This document shows, piece by piece, positions 3,772-55,946 of a stretch of 64,000 bases of DNA. The position numbers were made by a program, and so were the translations under genes. The DNA comes from a virus (Duplodnaviria; Caudoviricetes): the IMG/VR virus record IMGVR_UViG_3300025889_000071; one strand, given 5' to 3'. How positions within the stretch are numbered: the stretch's first letter is position 1; each line of letters opens with the position of its first letter. A model generated the notes under the pieces. It saw nothing but the letters and a program-made list of their open reading frames with translations. It was not told where the DNA came from and made no database searches.

Positions 3772-4585
3772 TAAGATTTCCGTTTATGGTTCCACCGGTT
3801 TTATTGGTGGAACTTTTTGTCGTCTTTTTCCTGACCAAATTACACAAATACCTAGGAATGAGAGAGAACCTCAATCAAATAACATATTGTATTTGATCAG
3901 TACAACAACAAATCACAATGTCTTTGATAATCTTCAGATTGATGTTGATACTAATCTTAAAATCTTGCTGGAAACATTAGAAAAATGTAAAAACGAAAAT
4001 ATTGTATTTAATTATGTGAGCACTGGTTTTGTTTATGGTTTGAATATAAATGATGCATTAGAAACTGATCCTTGTGATCCCAGAGGATTTTATTCGATTA
4101 CAAAGAGAGCTGCAGAGCAATTGATTATTTCATTCTGTCAAACATTTAATGTCAAGTATCGAATCATTCGTCTTGCTAATTTGTATGGGGATGATAAGAC
4201 AGTATCACCAAAGAAAAATGTTCTTGGGTTTCTTATTAATTTGATGAAAGAGGATAAGACAATTACTCTTCATGATGGTGGCAGTCATATTCGGGATTAT
4301 ACTCACGCTGATGATGTGTGTAGGGGTATAAAACTTGTTATGGACAAGGGAGAGATGAACTCTATTTACAATGTAGCTAGTGGAGAATCAATGCCTTTTA
4401 GAAACATTATGGAAAAGGCAAGAGAACTATTGAATAGTAAAAGTCAATTTGTTTCTGTTGAAACTCCAGATTTTAACAAGGCAGTGTTACCATCAAATTT
4501 TTACATCAATACTAATAAATTAAAAACTTTGGGGTTTGTTCCCAGTATTTCTCTTGAGCAAGGATTGAAAAATCTCTGTTCTTGA
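3764..4585 (+). CDS. NAD-dependent epimerase/dehydratase (extended SDR)
   Basis: GSTGFIGG, YSITK (YxxxK), RDYTHADD; start at ATG 3764. Confidence 0.85.
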   Translation: MSDKISVYGSTGFIGGTFCRLFPDQITQIPRNEREPQSNNILYLISTTTNHNVFDNLQIDVDTNLKILLETLEKCKNENIVFNYVSTGFVYGLNINDALETDPCDPRGFYSITKRAAEQLIISFCQTFNVKYRIIRLANLYGDDKTVSPKKNVLGFLINLMKEDKTITLHDGGSHIRDYTHADDVCRGIKLVMDKGEMNSIYNVASGESMPFRNIMEKARELLNSKSQFVSVETPDFNKAVLPSNFYINTNKLKTLGFVPSISLEQGLKNLCS

Positions 4586-5664: not shown

Positions 5665-6512
5665 AAGTAACTATTTTAGGATCTTCAGGCCAAATCGGTG
5701 CATATCTCACAGAGTATCTTCGTGATAAAAATCATGAAGTTACGGAGTTTGATGTTGCCCGTCATCATGGTGAAGACCTTACCCAGATTCCAAATCATAA
5801 TCTAGATCGTGCAATCAAGAATGCTGACTTTGTATTCTTCCTTGCATTTGATGTTGGTGGGTCGAGATATCTGAAAAAGTATCAACATACTTTTGATTTT
5901 ATCAATAACAATACCCGTATAATGGCTCAAACTTTTGATTTACTCAAAAAGCACAATAAAAGGTTTGTGTTTGCATCATCTCAAATGAGTAATATGAGTT
6001 ACTCTCCTTATGGTGCTTGTAAGAAACTTGGAGAACTCTATACTACCGCACTCAAAGGACTGACTGTTAAGTTCTGGAATGTTTATGGTATAGAAAAAGA
6101 TCTAGACAAAGCTCATGTCATCACAGACTTCATTCGGAAAGGATTTGAAGAAAAAGAATTTGAGATGATGACTGATGGTACTGAAGAACGTCAGTTTTTG
6201 TATGCAGAGGATTGTTGTGAAGCTCTTGAAACCGTAATGGAAAACTTTACTGATTTCAAACCAGAAGATCCTCTTCACATTACCTCATTTCATTCCAATA
6301 CTATTAGAGAAGTTGCTAATATCATTCAAGGTTGCTTCTCAATTGAAGGAATGCATGATGTAAAAATTAAGTCTGGACTTGCTAAAGACAATGTTCAGAT
6401 GGATAAAAGGAACACCGCAGATACATTTATTCTTGATTGGTGGGTTCCTAAAACCACTATTGATGTGGGTATTCGAAAAGTATTCAACGAAATGAAAAAG
6501 GACTATATGTGA
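5661..6512 (+). CDS. NAD-dependent epimerase/dehydratase
   Basis: GSSGQIG, YGACK (YxxxK), DGTEERQFLYAED. Confidence 0.85.
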   Translation: MKVTILGSSGQIGAYLTEYLRDKNHEVTEFDVARHHGEDLTQIPNHNLDRAIKNADFVFFLAFDVGGSRYLKKYQHTFDFINNNTRIMAQTFDLLKKHNKRFVFASSQMSNMSYSPYGACKKLGELYTTALKGLTVKFWNVYGIEKDLDKAHVITDFIRKGFEEKEFEMMTDGTEERQFLYAEDCCEALETVMENFTDFKPEDPLHITSFHSNTIREVANIIQGCFSIEGMHDVKIKSGLAKDNVQMDKRNTADTFILDWWVPKTTIDVGIRKVFNEMKKDYM

Positions 6513-7327
6513 TGAGATATTCTGTATCACATTGGAGTGGTAGATTGGGAAATAATATTCAGCAAGTTGCCAACTCAATTATGGCTGCTGAATATTACTC
6601 ATCTTCTGTTAGCCAAAATTTAGATCATTCGATTATACAAAAATTTAATATTGTTTTTGGAGAAAATGATTTTGGAGGATCTGGAAGATTTTATTCTTGG
6701 GAACCTTTAGTTCATTGTGAAAAAGGTATATATGAAGGTGGTAATGAAATAGGTATACCTAAAGAATATGTGTATGGTAACATTAGAAGAATATGTAAAA
6801 GTATTGTATCTGATAAATTAGATCTTCCTAAAAAAGATGTTATAGGTGATGATACTATTGTTATGCATTTAAGAAGTGGAGATAATTATCATAGAATATT
6901 TGATCCGCCAACTAACTATATTCCAAATCCTCTTATTTTTTATTTAAATTTGATAGAATCTTTCGACAAATGTATTTTGATAACAGAGCCTGATACTGAA
7001 AATCCAATCATTCATGAACTAAAGAAAATAAATAAAGTTGAAATTCAATCATCAAGTGTTGCAGACGATTTTGCAACACTCATGTCAGCAAAAAATGTTG
7101 CATTATCTGGGGTAGGAACTTTTGCTATGGCAGCAGTTTTATGCTCTAAAAGTATAAAAAATTTATATACGACAGATCTTTTATTGACAGAACATTTAAA
7201 TTATAGTATGGTTTTCAATACAGATATAAATGTTCATTTGATGGAATTGGATAATTATCTTCCTGTTTTTCCATGTAGTTGGAAAAATACAGAAGAGCAA
7301 AGAAAATTTATTTTAGAGTATCGATGA
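6512..7327 (+). CDS. GT11-like (alpha-1,2-fucosyltransferase-like) glycosyltransferase
   Basis: GRLGNNIQQ, MHLRSGD, DDFATLMSAKNV...GTFA motifs. Confidence 0.7.
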   Translation: MRYSVSHWSGRLGNNIQQVANSIMAAEYYSSSVSQNLDHSIIQKFNIVFGENDFGGSGRFYSWEPLVHCEKGIYEGGNEIGIPKEYVYGNIRRICKSIVSDKLDLPKKDVIGDDTIVMHLRSGDNYHRIFDPPTNYIPNPLIFYLNLIESFDKCILITEPDTENPIIHELKKINKVEIQSSSVADDFATLMSAKNVALSGVGTFAMAAVLCSKSIKNLYTTDLLLTEHLNYSMVFNTDINVHLMELDNYLPVFPCSWKNTEEQRKFILEYR

Positions 7328-23669: not shown

Positions 23670-23715
23670 AATCAACGACAAAGAAGTTTACATTTCTTAA
23701 CCGTTGGAACACACC

Positions 23716-23815
23716 CCGCAAACCGAGACCTCTAGGGTGTCTAAATCACGTCTCTTATATCCCAAGGCGAGGGGTCTTGGGAAATAGTAACTCCACCATG
23801 TCCCTGATGGTCTTA
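23716..23815 (+). ncRNA. PhotoRC-II-like structured 5' UTR of psbA
   Basis: Stems GAGAC/GTCTC (23725/23750), CCCAAG/CTTGGG (23761/23776), CCAT/ATGG (23796/23807) directly upstream of psbA, as in the cyanophage PhotoRC-II motif; boundaries approximate. Confidence 0.75.
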
Positions 23816-23831
23816 CTTAAATTTCAAAACA

Positions 23832-24911
23832 ATGTCTTCTACAACACTTTCAAAACAACAATCGAATACTTGGGACCAGTTCACTGAGTGGGTCACTTCC
23901 ACCAACAATCGTCTTTATGTTGGTTGGTTCGGAACTCTTATGATTCCAACCCTGCTTGCTGCTACACTCTGCTTCATCGTTGCCTTCATCGCTGCTCCTC
24001 CTGTGGACATCGATGGCATCCGTGAACCAGTCGCTGGTTCTCTCCTTTATGGAAACAACATCATCTCTGGTGCTGTTGTTCCTTCTTCTAACGCAATTGG
24101 ACTCCACTTCTATCCCATCTGGGAAGCTGCATCACTTGATGAATGGCTTTACAACGGTGGTCCTTATCAATTGGTCGTCTTCCACTTCCTGATTGGCATC
24201 TTCTGCTACATGGGTCGTGAGTGGGAACTTTCTTATCGTCTGGGTATGCGTCCCTGGATCTGCGTTGCATATTCCGCACCTGTTGCTGCTGCATCTGCTG
24301 TATTCCTGGTCTATCCTTTCGGTCAAGGTTCTTTCTCTGATGGTATGCCCCTTGGTATTAGTGGCACGTTCAACTTCATGCTTGTCTTCCAAGCAGAGCA
24401 CAACATCCTGATGCACCCCTTCCACATGCTTGGTGTGGCTGGTGTCTTCGGTGGTTCACTGTTCTCCGCAATGCACGGTTCTCTGGTTACTTCTTCACTG
24501 GTTCGTGAAACCACAGAAAACGAGTCCCAGAACTATGGTTACAAGTTCGGTCAAGAAGAAGAGACCTACAACATTGTTGCTGCTCATGGATACTTTGGTC
24601 GTCTAATCTTCCAATATGCATCCTTCAACAACTCCCGTTCACTTCACTTTTTCCTTGCAGCATGGCCTGTCGTAGGAATCTGGTTCACTGCACTTGGTGT
24701 TAGCACCATGGCATTCAATCTCAACGGTTTCAACTTCAACCAGTCCATCATCGACGGTCAAGGTCGTGTGCTCAACACCTGGGCAGATGTGCTGAACCGT
24801 GCCAACCTCGGGATGGAAGTGATGCACGAGAGGAACGCACACAATTTCCCTCTGGATCTTGCTGCTGCTGAGTCCACTCCTGTTGCACTTACTGCTCCAA
24901 CCATCGGTTGA
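23832..24911 (+). CDS. psbA: Photosystem II D1 protein (intron-less)
   Basis: [51 protein letters not shown]; uninterrupted 359 aa. Confidence 0.99.
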
Positions 24912-24932
24912 GTTTCCTGAAAACTGAATAAT

Positions 24933-24972
24933 AAAAAGGGGGTCTCATTGAGATCCTTTTTTTGTATAAATA
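24933..24972 (+). terminator. psbA terminator followed by T4 late promoter
   Basis: AAAAGGGGGTCTC-ATT-GAGATCCTTTT hairpin, then TATAAATA (24965-72). Confidence 0.75.
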
Positions 24973-24997
24973 GGTATTGAGAATACGCATTACAATA

Positions 24998-25363
24998 ATG
25001 AAAACTTGTAGCATCTGTAAGCAAGAGTTGCCTCTTTCAAACTTTCATAAAAGAACTTATGCTTCTGGAAATATTGGATATCAAAATAAATGTAGAAAAT
25101 GCACCACTACTGTTAGGAGAGAGTATTATAAGCCCCACGAAAAAACTAGACAAAAACTAAAAATTAGTGAGGAGCAGTATAATGATCTAATGAAGAATGA
25201 GAACTGTCAAATATGTGATGCAGAACTAACCAAGAAGTGTATTGACCACTGCCACTCCACAAACAAGATACGGGGTGTCCTCTGCAACAACTGCAACACC
25301 GCACTGGGTCTTGTAGGAGACAACACCCATATCCTCCAAAAGATGATTGAGTATCTCGGTTGA
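24998..25363 (+). CDS. Endonuclease VII-motif homing endonuclease (F-CphI-like)
   Basis: N-terminal CxxC...CxxC; C-terminal CQICD...IDHCHSTNKIRGVLCNNCNTALG (EndoVII); directly downstream of psbA like F-CphI of S-PM2. Confidence 0.85.
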   Translation: MKTCSICKQELPLSNFHKRTYASGNIGYQNKCRKCTTTVRREYYKPHEKTRQKLKISEEQYNDLMKNENCQICDAELTKKCIDHCHSTNKIRGVLCNNCNTALGLVGDNTHILQKMIEYLG

Positions 25364-25389
25364 TATAAAAACTAAATACTGATATAATA

Positions 25390-25415
25390 AGAGGGTCACA
25401 CAGACCCTCTTTTTT
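25390..25415 (+). terminator. Intrinsic terminator
   Basis: AGAGGGTC-ACACA-GACCCTCT-TTTTT. Confidence 0.75.
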
Positions 25416-25416
25416 A

Positions 25417-25593
25417 ATGGCAAAAGTTAGAGACCCACTCAAGTATGGATACTATGGAGTTGATTATGTGCTCTGGGGTAAAGATAGAGTTGCTGTTTAC
25501 TTTGATATGATTACTGCACAACAATCAATGATGTCTATGCTGAAACGTGGAGTTGAAGTCAAAGGAATGAGAGAGATTAAAGTAAATGGGTAA
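25417..25593 (+). CDS. Hypothetical protein (58 aa)
   Basis: Manually read MAKVRDPLKYGYYGVDYVLWGKDRVAVYFD... Confidence 0.6.
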   Translation: MAKVRDPLKYGYYGVDYVLWGKDRVAVYFDMITAQQSMMSMLKRGVEVKGMREIKVNG

Positions 25594-55629: not shown

Positions 55630-55633
55630 CCTT

Positions 55634-55916
55634 GCGAGTATGGTGGAATCGGTAGACACACCAGACTTATGAAAATTGAGCCTCATTTGAGAAATCTTAT
55701 GAGTGTAACTCCTCAAATTCGGGGAAACCTGTAAAATGGCAATCCCGAGCCAAGCATCGCAAGATGAAGGTGTAGAGACTAGACGGGGAGCACCTAAACC
55801 GAAAGGTATGGTGAAGGGATAGTCCAGACCACAAACCGTAAGGGCAAGGAAACTTGTAGTGGTAAGAAAATCTGTTGACCATTGCGGTCGTGGGAGTTCA
55901 AGTCTCCCTACTCGCA
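55634..55916 (+). tRNA. trnL: tRNA-Leu(UAA), split by group I intron (exons 55634-55668, 55867-55916)
   Basis: Joined exons give an 85-nt type II tRNA with anticodon loop CTT|AAAA, variable arm GACC..GGTC, T-loop GTTCAAGT. Confidence 0.92.
55669..55866 (+). mobile_element. Group I self-splicing intron (trnL-type, 198 nt, no ORF)
   Basis: Inserted U^AA; P1 CTT/GAG with U.G; P AAATTCGGGGAA, Q AATCCCGAGC, R GTGTAGAGACTAGACG, S GGATAGTCCA; GNRA loops in P6, P8, P9; ends in G. Confidence 0.93.
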
Positions 55917-55946
55917 TTAAAATAAATAAGACAAAACGGTAAGTAT

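What the first reader, a model, noticed from the sequence alone, without database searches (positions are those of the whole stretch)
24790..25363. Intron-less psbA appears synonymously recoded at the target of its neighbouring F-CphI-like endonuclease
Seen: psbA has no intron, yet an EndoVII-motif endonuclease follows it. All 10 other Arg codons in psbA are CGT, but the HERN Arg is AGG (24831). The gene's only GGG codon is at 24810, with GCA CAC AAT nearby. Known (from memory): S-PM2 F-CphI cuts intron-less psbA near the intron site around codon 334 and the intron gives immunity. Inference: here immunity comes from silent mutation, i.e. intron-less homing that spreads a recoded psbA 3' end.
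Basis: partly seen in the sequence, partly recalled or inferred. Interest (0 to 1): 0.7.

Follow-up and report, generated by a model that had tools for sequence, protein, structure and literature searches.

The report
Nuclease-proofed psbA beside homing endonuclease
A cyanophage carries a selfish DNA-cutting enzyme gene just after its photosystem II gene psbA, and comparison with about 130 related loci indicates that the phage avoids cutting itself not with the known protective intron but with silent codon changes in a 45-base patch of psbA; no cleavage was tested.

Summary
psbA (23832-24911) has no intron. Ten of its Arg codons are CGT and one is AGG (codon 334, 24831). Its only GGG is codon 327 (24810). 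A 121-aa EndoVII/DHHRN endonuclease follows at 24998-25363 and is 32% identical to F-CphI.

The pattern holds across the family. Beside close homologues of this endonuclease I found 50 distinct intron-less psbA sites:
- 46 have AGR at codon 334, while 0 of 173 other Arg codons in 18 of these genes read in full are AGR.
- Only 5 keep GCT at codon 336.
- Endonuclease-free phage psbA has AGR in 12 of 56, and cellular cyanobacteria in 5 of 80.

A scan of codons 20-341 puts the peak of differentiation at codons 327-341 (0 of 200 permutations reach it). Related endonuclease-linked psbA genes instead carry group I introns at four positions in or next to this stretch. Alleles with the intron after codon 334 or 336 keep the canonical codons. 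Empty-site alleles and insertions in both orientations show the gene is mobile.

The best reading is intron-less homing with self-immunity by target recoding (about 70%). Cleavage is untested. The same codons also occur in some endonuclease-free phages, and phylogenetically independent contrasts are few. The scan found this before on other DNA (e1-5377585).

The parts
23698..23795 (+). PhotoRC-II RNA motif in the psbA leader (context only)
   Evidence: Rfam RF01717, 73.7 bits, E 1.1e-10
23832..24911 (+). psbA (photosystem II D1), intron-less, 359 aa
   Evidence: Single ORF. 85-89% DNA identity to cyanophage psbA genes. No Intron_gpI hit inside it.
24810..24854 (+). Variant patch, codons 327-341: the inferred target region of the endonuclease. 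The window departs from the consensus of endonuclease-free alleles at GGG327, AGG334, AAC335, GCA336, AAT338 and CTG341, all silent.
   Evidence: This is the most differentiated 15-codon stretch of codons 20-341 between endonuclease-linked and endonuclease-free alleles: 2.66 against a median of 0.19, reached by 0 of 200 label permutations. Codon table; consensus.
24828..24840 (+). Position of the 13-base palindrome GAGCGTAACGCTC of canonical psbA. Here it reads GAGAGGAACGCAC, with 3 of 6 symmetric pairs broken.
   Evidence: Mean Hamming distance to the palindrome is 2.0 in endonuclease-free alleles and 3.96 in endonuclease-linked alleles. It is perfect or one base off in 64 of 80 cellular psbA genes. 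That it is the core of the target is my inference.
24940..24963 (+). Terminator-like hairpin and T-run after psbA
   Evidence: Read from the sequence. The hairpin is imperfect and the scan did not call it. A comparable hairpin precedes the endonuclease in relatives.
24965..24972 (+). TATAAATA, the consensus of T4-type late promoters, 26 bases before the endonuclease ATG
   Evidence: Present at the same place in 21 of 23 relatives; the other two read CATAAATA. Promoter activity is inferred from T4 knowledge, not shown.
24998..25363 (+). Free-standing EndoVII-motif (DHHRN) endonuclease, 121 aa, a relative of F-CphI
   Evidence: Pfam PF02945, E 6.6e-17. 32% identity to F-CphI over the full length, E 2e-17. 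CxxC, DHCH, R and CNNCN are invariant in 24 aligned homologues, and 83 distinct homologues have no stop codon. The best solved relative is Hpy99I (3fc3), E 3.7e-6.
24912..25363 (+). Approximate extent of the inserted cassette (hairpin, promoter, endonuclease)
   Evidence: Endonuclease-free loci L095, L046 and L115 join the psbA stop directly to the sequence that follows the endonuclease here. The endonuclease ORF ends in GGT TGA plus the same 3' UTR that follows psbA's GGT TGA in those loci.
25389..25417 (+). Intrinsic terminator after the endonuclease, which is the psbA terminator of empty-site alleles
   Evidence: 9-pair stem plus T-run. Homologous to the terminator right after psbA in L095 and L046.

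Best explanation
A mobile cassette, consisting of a late promoter and a 121-aa sequence-specific DHHRN/EndoVII-type endonuclease, sits between psbA and its terminator.

By analogy with F-CphI and the T4 Seg/Mob enzymes, the enzyme is made during infection. In mixed infections it cuts psbA alleles that carry the canonical sequence around codons 327-341. Repair from the endonuclease-bearing genome then copies the cassette, and some flanking psbA, into the cut genome.

The carrier's own psbA escapes because this stretch is rewritten. In this phage the changes are silent only (GGG327, AGG334, GCA336, AAT338). In relatives they also include M328L and replacements of M331. Other relatives protect the same stretch with a group I intron.

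Shown: the anatomy, the mobility of the cassette, the family-wide and localised association, and the conserved catalytic motif. Inferred: that the enzyme cuts here, and that the variant codons block it.
For: 1. The enzyme is intact and of the right kind. Its catalytic motif is C-terminal, as in the endonuclease clade of PMC6083498.

2. It is mobile. Empty-site alleles exist, insertions occur in both orientations, and carriers are scattered over the tree of the psbA 5' part, needing at least 11 changes on well-supported branches.

3. It is always beside psbA. All 42 IMG/VR homologues lie next to psbA or, on cut contigs, next to psbD.

4. Site statistics. AGR334 occurs in 46 of 50 distinct sites and GCT336 in only 5 of 50. 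In 18 such genes read in full, 0 of 173 other Arg codons are AGR. In endonuclease-free phage psbA, AGR334 is 12 of 56 (Fisher p 4e-7 against 16 of 18). In cellular cyanobacteria it is 5 of 80, with no M328L or M331 replacement.

5. Differentiation peaks at codons 327-341 and nowhere else. In pairs matched on 5' identity, patch identity is 0.769 against 0.878 (p 1.6e-5), and the flanks are affected only weakly.

6. Independent contrasts on the tree go the expected way: AGR334 5.3 against 0.1, and not-GCT336 6.8 against 0.0 with median p 0.016.

7. Endonuclease-linked relatives have confirmed group I introns in codon 331 and after codons 334, 336 and 337. Alleles with the intron after 334 or 336 keep CGY and mostly GCT. 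Alleles whose intron lies outside the 13-base palindrome are recoded within it.

8. Self-protection by target polymorphism is established for T4 MobE (PMC2790892).
Against: - No cleavage data exist for this enzyme. It shares only 32% identity with F-CphI, so its target may differ.
- AGR334 is not exclusive to carriers. In a pattern-based sample, only 8 of 19 CGN-biased genes with AGR334 had any EndoVII-type gene downstream, against 5 of 39 with CGN334 (p 0.019).
- Four endonuclease-linked sites keep CGN at codon 334 (L128, L178, L066, L033).
- Independent contrasts are few (12), and for AGR334 alone the median p is 0.06.
- CGT at codon 334 in the alleles with an intron after codon 334 may be required for splicing: by general knowledge of group I introns (not checked here) the 5' exon ends in U. 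Only the three distinct alleles with the intron after codon 336 are a free test.
Confidence: 0.7

Rival explanations
1. Linked marker only. The endonuclease first landed beside a psbA allele that happened to carry AGR334 and GCA336. Those codons travel with it by co-conversion or shared descent and have no effect on cleavage.
For: Flanks on both sides of the patch are also slightly more diverged in carrier/non-carrier pairs (codons 300-326 p 0.0045, tail p 0.06). The same patch occurs without the endonuclease, for example in L095 and L106.
Against: The 17 codons between the patch and the endonuclease should be at least as differentiated as the patch, and they are not. The patch is reached by many different codon and amino-acid solutions (AGA or AGG; GCA or GCC; L, F or M at 328; S, I, V or Q at 331), not by one haplotype. 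Alleles with an intron after codon 334 or 336 keep the canonical codons.
Confidence: 0.15
2. Resistance to other phages' nucleases rather than self-immunity. The patch is a population-wide escape from any psbA-targeting DHHRN endonuclease or intron invasion, selected whether or not the genome carries the gene.
For: About a fifth of endonuclease-free alleles carry AGR334 with no AGR elsewhere. Two other EndoVII subfamilies also sit after psbA, some beside AGR334 alleles. By general knowledge of group I introns, an exon ending in A or G at codon 334 could not host an intron there.
Against: It does not explain why carriers have the patch far more often than non-carriers (92% against 21%). It complements the best explanation rather than excluding it.
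Confidence: 0.1
3. Chance or compositional drift. The phage genome is AT-rich (35% G+C), and a stray AGG and GGG in a host-like gene mean nothing.
For: The window has 35.4% G+C. AGR334 is ordinary in AT-rich psbA genes, where 37% of other Arg codons are AGR.
Against: 0 of 173 other Arg codons are AGR in the 18 carriers read in full, against 16 of 18 at codon 334. No label permutation reaches the localised peak.
Confidence: 0.03
4. The protein is a Holliday-junction resolvase like T4 gp49, with no sequence-specific target.
For: It has the same catalytic motif and the same Pfam family.
Against: The motif is C-terminal behind a CxxC...CxxC region. The full length aligns with F-CphI and with the sequence-specific Hpy99I. 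Its distribution is sporadic, with empty sites and both orientations, and it is always beside psbA.
Confidence: 0.02

Closest known systems
F-CphI of Synechococcus phage S-PM2 with the psbA group I intron ('collaborative homing'; Zeng, Bonocora & Shub 2009, as summarised in PMC6083498)
   Same: Same enzyme family and architecture (DHHRN motif at the C-terminus, CxxC region at the N-terminus). Same position directly after psbA. The inferred target lies around the S-PM2 intron insertion site (codon 334|335).
   Different: Only 32% identity. This psbA has no intron, so immunity would come from silent substitutions. The gene has its own TATAAATA promoter after a psbA terminator-like hairpin. A 2012 paper states that all such cyanophage endonucleases lie beside intron-containing psbA (PMC3428280). 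I could not read Zeng 2009 or Millard 2010 to check whether intron-less cases were noted there.
Intron-less homing by free-standing T4 endonucleases (SegF, SegG, MobE)
   Same: An optional gene lies between conserved genes, the target lies in the neighbouring conserved gene about 100-200 bases away, and the carrier is protected by nucleotide polymorphisms in its own target (MobE: PMC2790892; review PMC2988022).
   Different: The nuclease family differs (GIY-YIG or HNH against DHHRN). Here the protection is seen as a family-wide statistical signature, not shown by crosses or cleavage.
Endonuclease VII-like gp28 of Synechococcus phage S-SKS1 (NC_020851)
   Same: The closest isolate: 69% identical protein, directly after an intron-less psbA with AGG334 and GCC336. 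It is listed among EndoVII-motif proteins with a C-terminal motif in PMC6083498 Table S1.
   Different: S-SKS1 also has M328L and M331I, and an HNH endonuclease follows. The paper's Table S1 lists it as a siphovirus.
Hpy99I restriction endonuclease (PDB 3fc3)
   Same: The best solved relative over the whole length, E 3.7e-6. It is a sequence-specific DHHRN nuclease.
   Different: It belongs to a restriction-modification system, and its short target is protected by methylation (PMC6083498).

Membership tests
DHHRN (EndoVII-motif) homing endonucleases, F-CphI type | EndoVII catalytic domain with CX2-4C, D-H-x-H, R, CX2C and N | tested here: met
   Pfam PF02945, E 6.6e-17. C70/C73, D83, H84, H86, R92, C96/C99 and N100 are invariant in 24 homologues. 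Residue roles are from PMC6083498.
DHHRN (EndoVII-motif) homing endonucleases, F-CphI type | Motif at the C-terminus, with full-length alignment to F-CphI (endonuclease clade, not resolvase clade) | tested here: met
   The domain covers the C-terminal two thirds of the protein. BLASTP against F-CphI spans the full length, 32% identity, E 2e-17. I built no tree with the published set.
DHHRN (EndoVII-motif) homing endonucleases, F-CphI type | Site-specific cleavage of psbA near codon 334 | not testable with these tools
   Inferred only, from the localised variant patch and the intron positions.
Collaborative homing (free-standing endonuclease plus ORF-less intron) | An intron interrupts the endonuclease target in the carrier genome | tested here: not met
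   psbA is one ORF of 359 aa and has no Intron_gpI hit. Relatives such as L010, L023, L026 and L041 do meet this feature.
Intron-less homing (SegF/SegG/MobE type) | An optional free-standing endonuclease gene between conserved genes, with empty-site alleles in relatives | tested here: met
   L095, L046 and L115 lack the cassette at the same junction. Carriers are scattered on the psbA tree.
Intron-less homing (SegF/SegG/MobE type) | The carrier's own target differs from that of non-carriers | tested here: met
   The association is shown; its effect on cleavage is not.
Intron-less homing (SegF/SegG/MobE type) | High-frequency, one-way inheritance with co-conversion in mixed infection | not testable with these tools
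   There is only indirect support: weak extra divergence of the flanks in carrier/non-carrier pairs.
T4 gp49-type Holliday junction resolvase | N-terminal catalytic domain, with alignment over the whole length of EndoVII | tested here: not met
   Only residues 57-106 match residues 11-68 of EndoVII, E 0.0035. The motif is C-terminal.

The most novel reading that the evidence does not exclude
One roughly 45-base stretch of phage psbA, centred on a 13-base palindrome (GAGCGTAACGCTC) that a dimeric DHHRN nuclease may read, is under attack across a whole family of cyanophages. It is defended in three interchangeable ways: group I introns at four positions, silent recoding as in this window, and replacement of the otherwise near-invariant D1 residues M328 and M331, next to the manganese-cluster ligands H332 and E333. 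If so, a selfish nuclease is shaping the protein sequence of a photosystem II core subunit. Host psbA genes, which keep the canonical site, would also be cuttable.
Probability: 0.35. Interest if true: 0.7.

Novelty: new variant of a known kind. Interest (0 to 1): 0.55.

Why it matters
F-CphI is the textbook case of 'collaborative homing', in which an intron shields the carrier. This window, with about 50 sister alleles, shows the same nuclease family living beside intron-less psbA, with the shield apparently written into the codons.

That has three uses:
- It provides the intermediate that models of mobile-intron origin assume: a free-standing nuclease pre-adapted to a conserved site.
- It offers a natural mutational map of which target bases matter for a poorly characterised nuclease family.
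- It warns that odd codons, and even amino-acid changes, in phage psbA can reflect conflict with selfish DNA rather than photosynthetic adaptation. This matters because psbA is widely used as a marker of cyanophage diversity.

Tried and rejected
- AGR334 alone as a diagnostic: rejected. A pattern scan of IMG/VR shows it is common in AT-rich psbA with no endonuclease (0 of 51 genes with 3 or more AGR elsewhere carry one).
- Symmetry score of the 13-mer as a clean discriminator: the groups differ only in their means and overlap.
- First MEVMHE regex: it missed most carriers because many have M328L or M331 replacements. It was replaced by a looser pattern.
- My first endonuclease coordinates (25007) started three codons late. 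Corrected to 24998.
- The genome search 'own': no genome is held.
- Zeng 2009, Bonocora & Shub 2009 and Belle 2002 could not be read. The exact F-CphI cut positions, and whether intron-less F-CphI neighbours were already noted, therefore remain unchecked.
- No second EndoVII-type gene was found in the 64-kb window.

Full report
**What is there.** The window is part of an AT-rich (35% G+C) cyanophage genome with petF, psbA and psbD.
- psbA is a single 359-codon ORF at 23832-24911. A PhotoRC-II leader precedes it, and it contains no group I intron.
- After its stop come an imperfect hairpin with a T-run (about 24940-24963), the octamer TATAAATA (24965-24972), a 121-codon ORF (24998-25363) and a clean intrinsic terminator (25389-25417).
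- The ORF matches Pfam Endonuclease_7 (E 6.6e-17). It aligns over its whole length with F-CphI of S-PM2 (32% identity, E 2e-17) and with the restriction enzyme Hpy99I (E 3.7e-6).
- The residues that PMC6083498 names as essential (D, H, H, R, N and the two Cys pairs) are invariant in 24 aligned homologues. None of 83 distinct homologues has a stop codon.

**The observation.** Arg is 10 CGT and one AGG (codon 334). The only GGG is codon 327. GCA CAC AAT follow at codons 336-338. In the S-PM2 record the intron lies between CGT(334) and codon 335.

**Is it more than chance?** I gathered homologues of the endonuclease from IMG/VR (42 loci) and from metagenomes (80 loci), plus phage S-SKS1. Wherever upstream DNA is present, psbA lies directly beside the gene.
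- Among 50 distinct intron-less sites (78 loci) beside a homologue of at least 55% identity, codon 334 is AGA or AGG in 46, and codon 336 is GCT in only 5. Residue 328 is Leu in 26, and residue 331 is replaced in 10. Sixteen, like the window, differ only silently.
- In 18 such genes read in full, none of 173 other Arg codons is AGR.
- In a psbA-based IMG/VR sample without an endonuclease, AGR334 is 12 of 56 and GCT336 is 41 of 56.
- In 80 cellular cyanobacterial psbA genes, AGR334 is 5 and GCT336 is 68. None has M328L or an M331 replacement.

**Localisation.** I scanned codons 20-341 for excess between-group mismatch, comparing 26 carriers with 54 non-carriers.
- Codons 334, 336 and 328 rank first to third. 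Codons 337, 341, 338, 339, 330 and 327 are all within the top 11.
- The best 15-codon window starts at codon 327 (2.66; median 0.19; 95th percentile 0.61). No label permutation reaches it; the highest of 200 was 0.72.
- In nearest-neighbour pairs matched on 5' identity, patch identity is 0.769 for carrier/non-carrier pairs and 0.878 for non-carrier pairs (p 1.6e-5). Codons 300-326 (p 0.0045) and the last 17 codons (p 0.06) are affected only weakly.
- This is the pattern expected of a selected site with some co-converted flank, not of a simple lineage marker.

**Phylogenetic control.** On a tree of the 5' part of psbA, carriers are scattered, with at least 11 changes forced by well-supported branches. 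With 205 alleles there are 12 independent contrasts:
- AGR334 goes with the endonuclease in 5.3 and against it in 0.1 (median p 0.06).
- Not-GCT336 goes 6.8 against 0.0 (p 0.016).
- M328L goes 6.1 against 0.2 (p 0.03).

The direction is consistent, but power is modest.

**The alternative shield.** Other carriers have Rfam-confirmed group I introns at four sites within about 20 bases: inside codon 331, and after codons 334, 336 and 337.
- Alleles with the intron after 334 or 336 keep CGT or CGC, and mostly GCT.
- Alleles whose intron lies in codon 331 are recoded downstream of it (AGA or AGG at codon 334, or GCC at codon 336).
- The canonical sequence of codons 333-337 contains a perfect 13-base palindrome, GAGCGTAACGCTC. 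The S-PM2-type intron splits it one base 5' of its centre.
- Mean distance to this palindrome is 2.0 in non-carriers and 3.96 in carriers.
- That it is the core of the target, read by a dimer, is my inference. The dimer prediction could not be run.

**Mobility.** Loci L095, L046 and L115 join psbA's GGT TGA directly to the 3' UTR and terminator that, in the window, follow the endonuclease's own GGT TGA. The cassette therefore spans about 24912-25363. In L013, L014, L066, L077 and L358 it is inverted. TATAAATA, the T4 late-promoter consensus, precedes the gene in 21 of 23 relatives.

**Caveats.**
- AGR334 is not exclusive to carriers. A pattern scan shows it is ordinary in AT-rich psbA genes, none of which has the endonuclease. 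In CGN-biased genes an EndoVII-type gene follows 8 of 19 AGR334 alleles against 5 of 39 CGN334 alleles (p 0.019).
- L106 carries the window's codons at 334-338 without the gene, and L095 does so at an empty site. This is as expected for resistant alleles in a homing cycle, but it also fits descent.
- Four carriers keep CGN at codon 334.
- No cleavage has been tested, and the enzyme is far from F-CphI.

**Comparison and novelty.**
- The enzyme belongs to the DHHRN family. The system fails the defining feature of collaborative homing, because there is no intron. It fits intron-less homing as known for T4 SegF, SegG and MobE, where polymorphisms in the carrier's own target are thought to prevent self-nicking (PMC2790892).
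- A 2012 paper states that all such cyanophage endonucleases lie beside intron-containing psbA. The intron-less, recoded state therefore seems undescribed in the literature I could read.
- I could not read the two primary papers.
- An earlier agent of this scan reached the same reading on another genome (e1-5377585). My analysis supports it independently.

Noticed in passing
window 55632-55926 (+): Directly after tRNA-Ile, tRNA-Met and tRNA-Val lies what looks like a tRNA-Leu(UAA)-type gene. Its acceptor and T-arm halves are readable, and a group I intron interrupts it (Rfam RF00028, 55659-55848, 63 bits). ARAGORN does not call it.
   Followed up: partly
window 25358-25417 vs 24909-24963; L095:2425-2500, L046:2565-2640: The endonuclease ORF ends in GGT TGA followed by the same 3' UTR and terminator that follow psbA's GGT TGA in empty-site loci. 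The psbA end and UTR are therefore partly duplicated on both sides of the cassette. The enzyme's last Gly and its stop may derive from psbA.
   Followed up: partly
L048, L049, L074, L113, L338, L431; and L119/L207, L223, L233, L255, L289, L402, L100/L387: Two further EndoVII-type subfamilies sit right after intron-less psbA. One is 46-49% identical to F-CphI, and its psbA keeps CGT or CGA at codon 334 but has GTT, CAT, GAA, AAT and TTT nearby. The other is 31-40% identical to both enzymes, with AGR334 in 5 of 7 distinct alleles.
   Followed up: partly
L002 (IMGVR_UViG_3300042987_001812), 165-2817: Six Rfam group I intron hits fall in and just before one phage psbA. Two of them flank a mini-exon of about 19 bases at codons 331-337.
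   Followed up: no
L043 (S-SKS1) 4043-4552 and 5819-6525: In S-SKS1 an HNH endonuclease gene follows the EndoVII-type gene. A transaldolase gene comes next, then a gene annotated as a second 'photosystem II D1', which matches the window's D1 at only 32% and is probably psbD.
   Followed up: no
window 23698-23795 (+): A PhotoRC-II RNA motif lies in the psbA leader. It is also present before psbA in L010, L023, L026 and L041.
   Followed up: no
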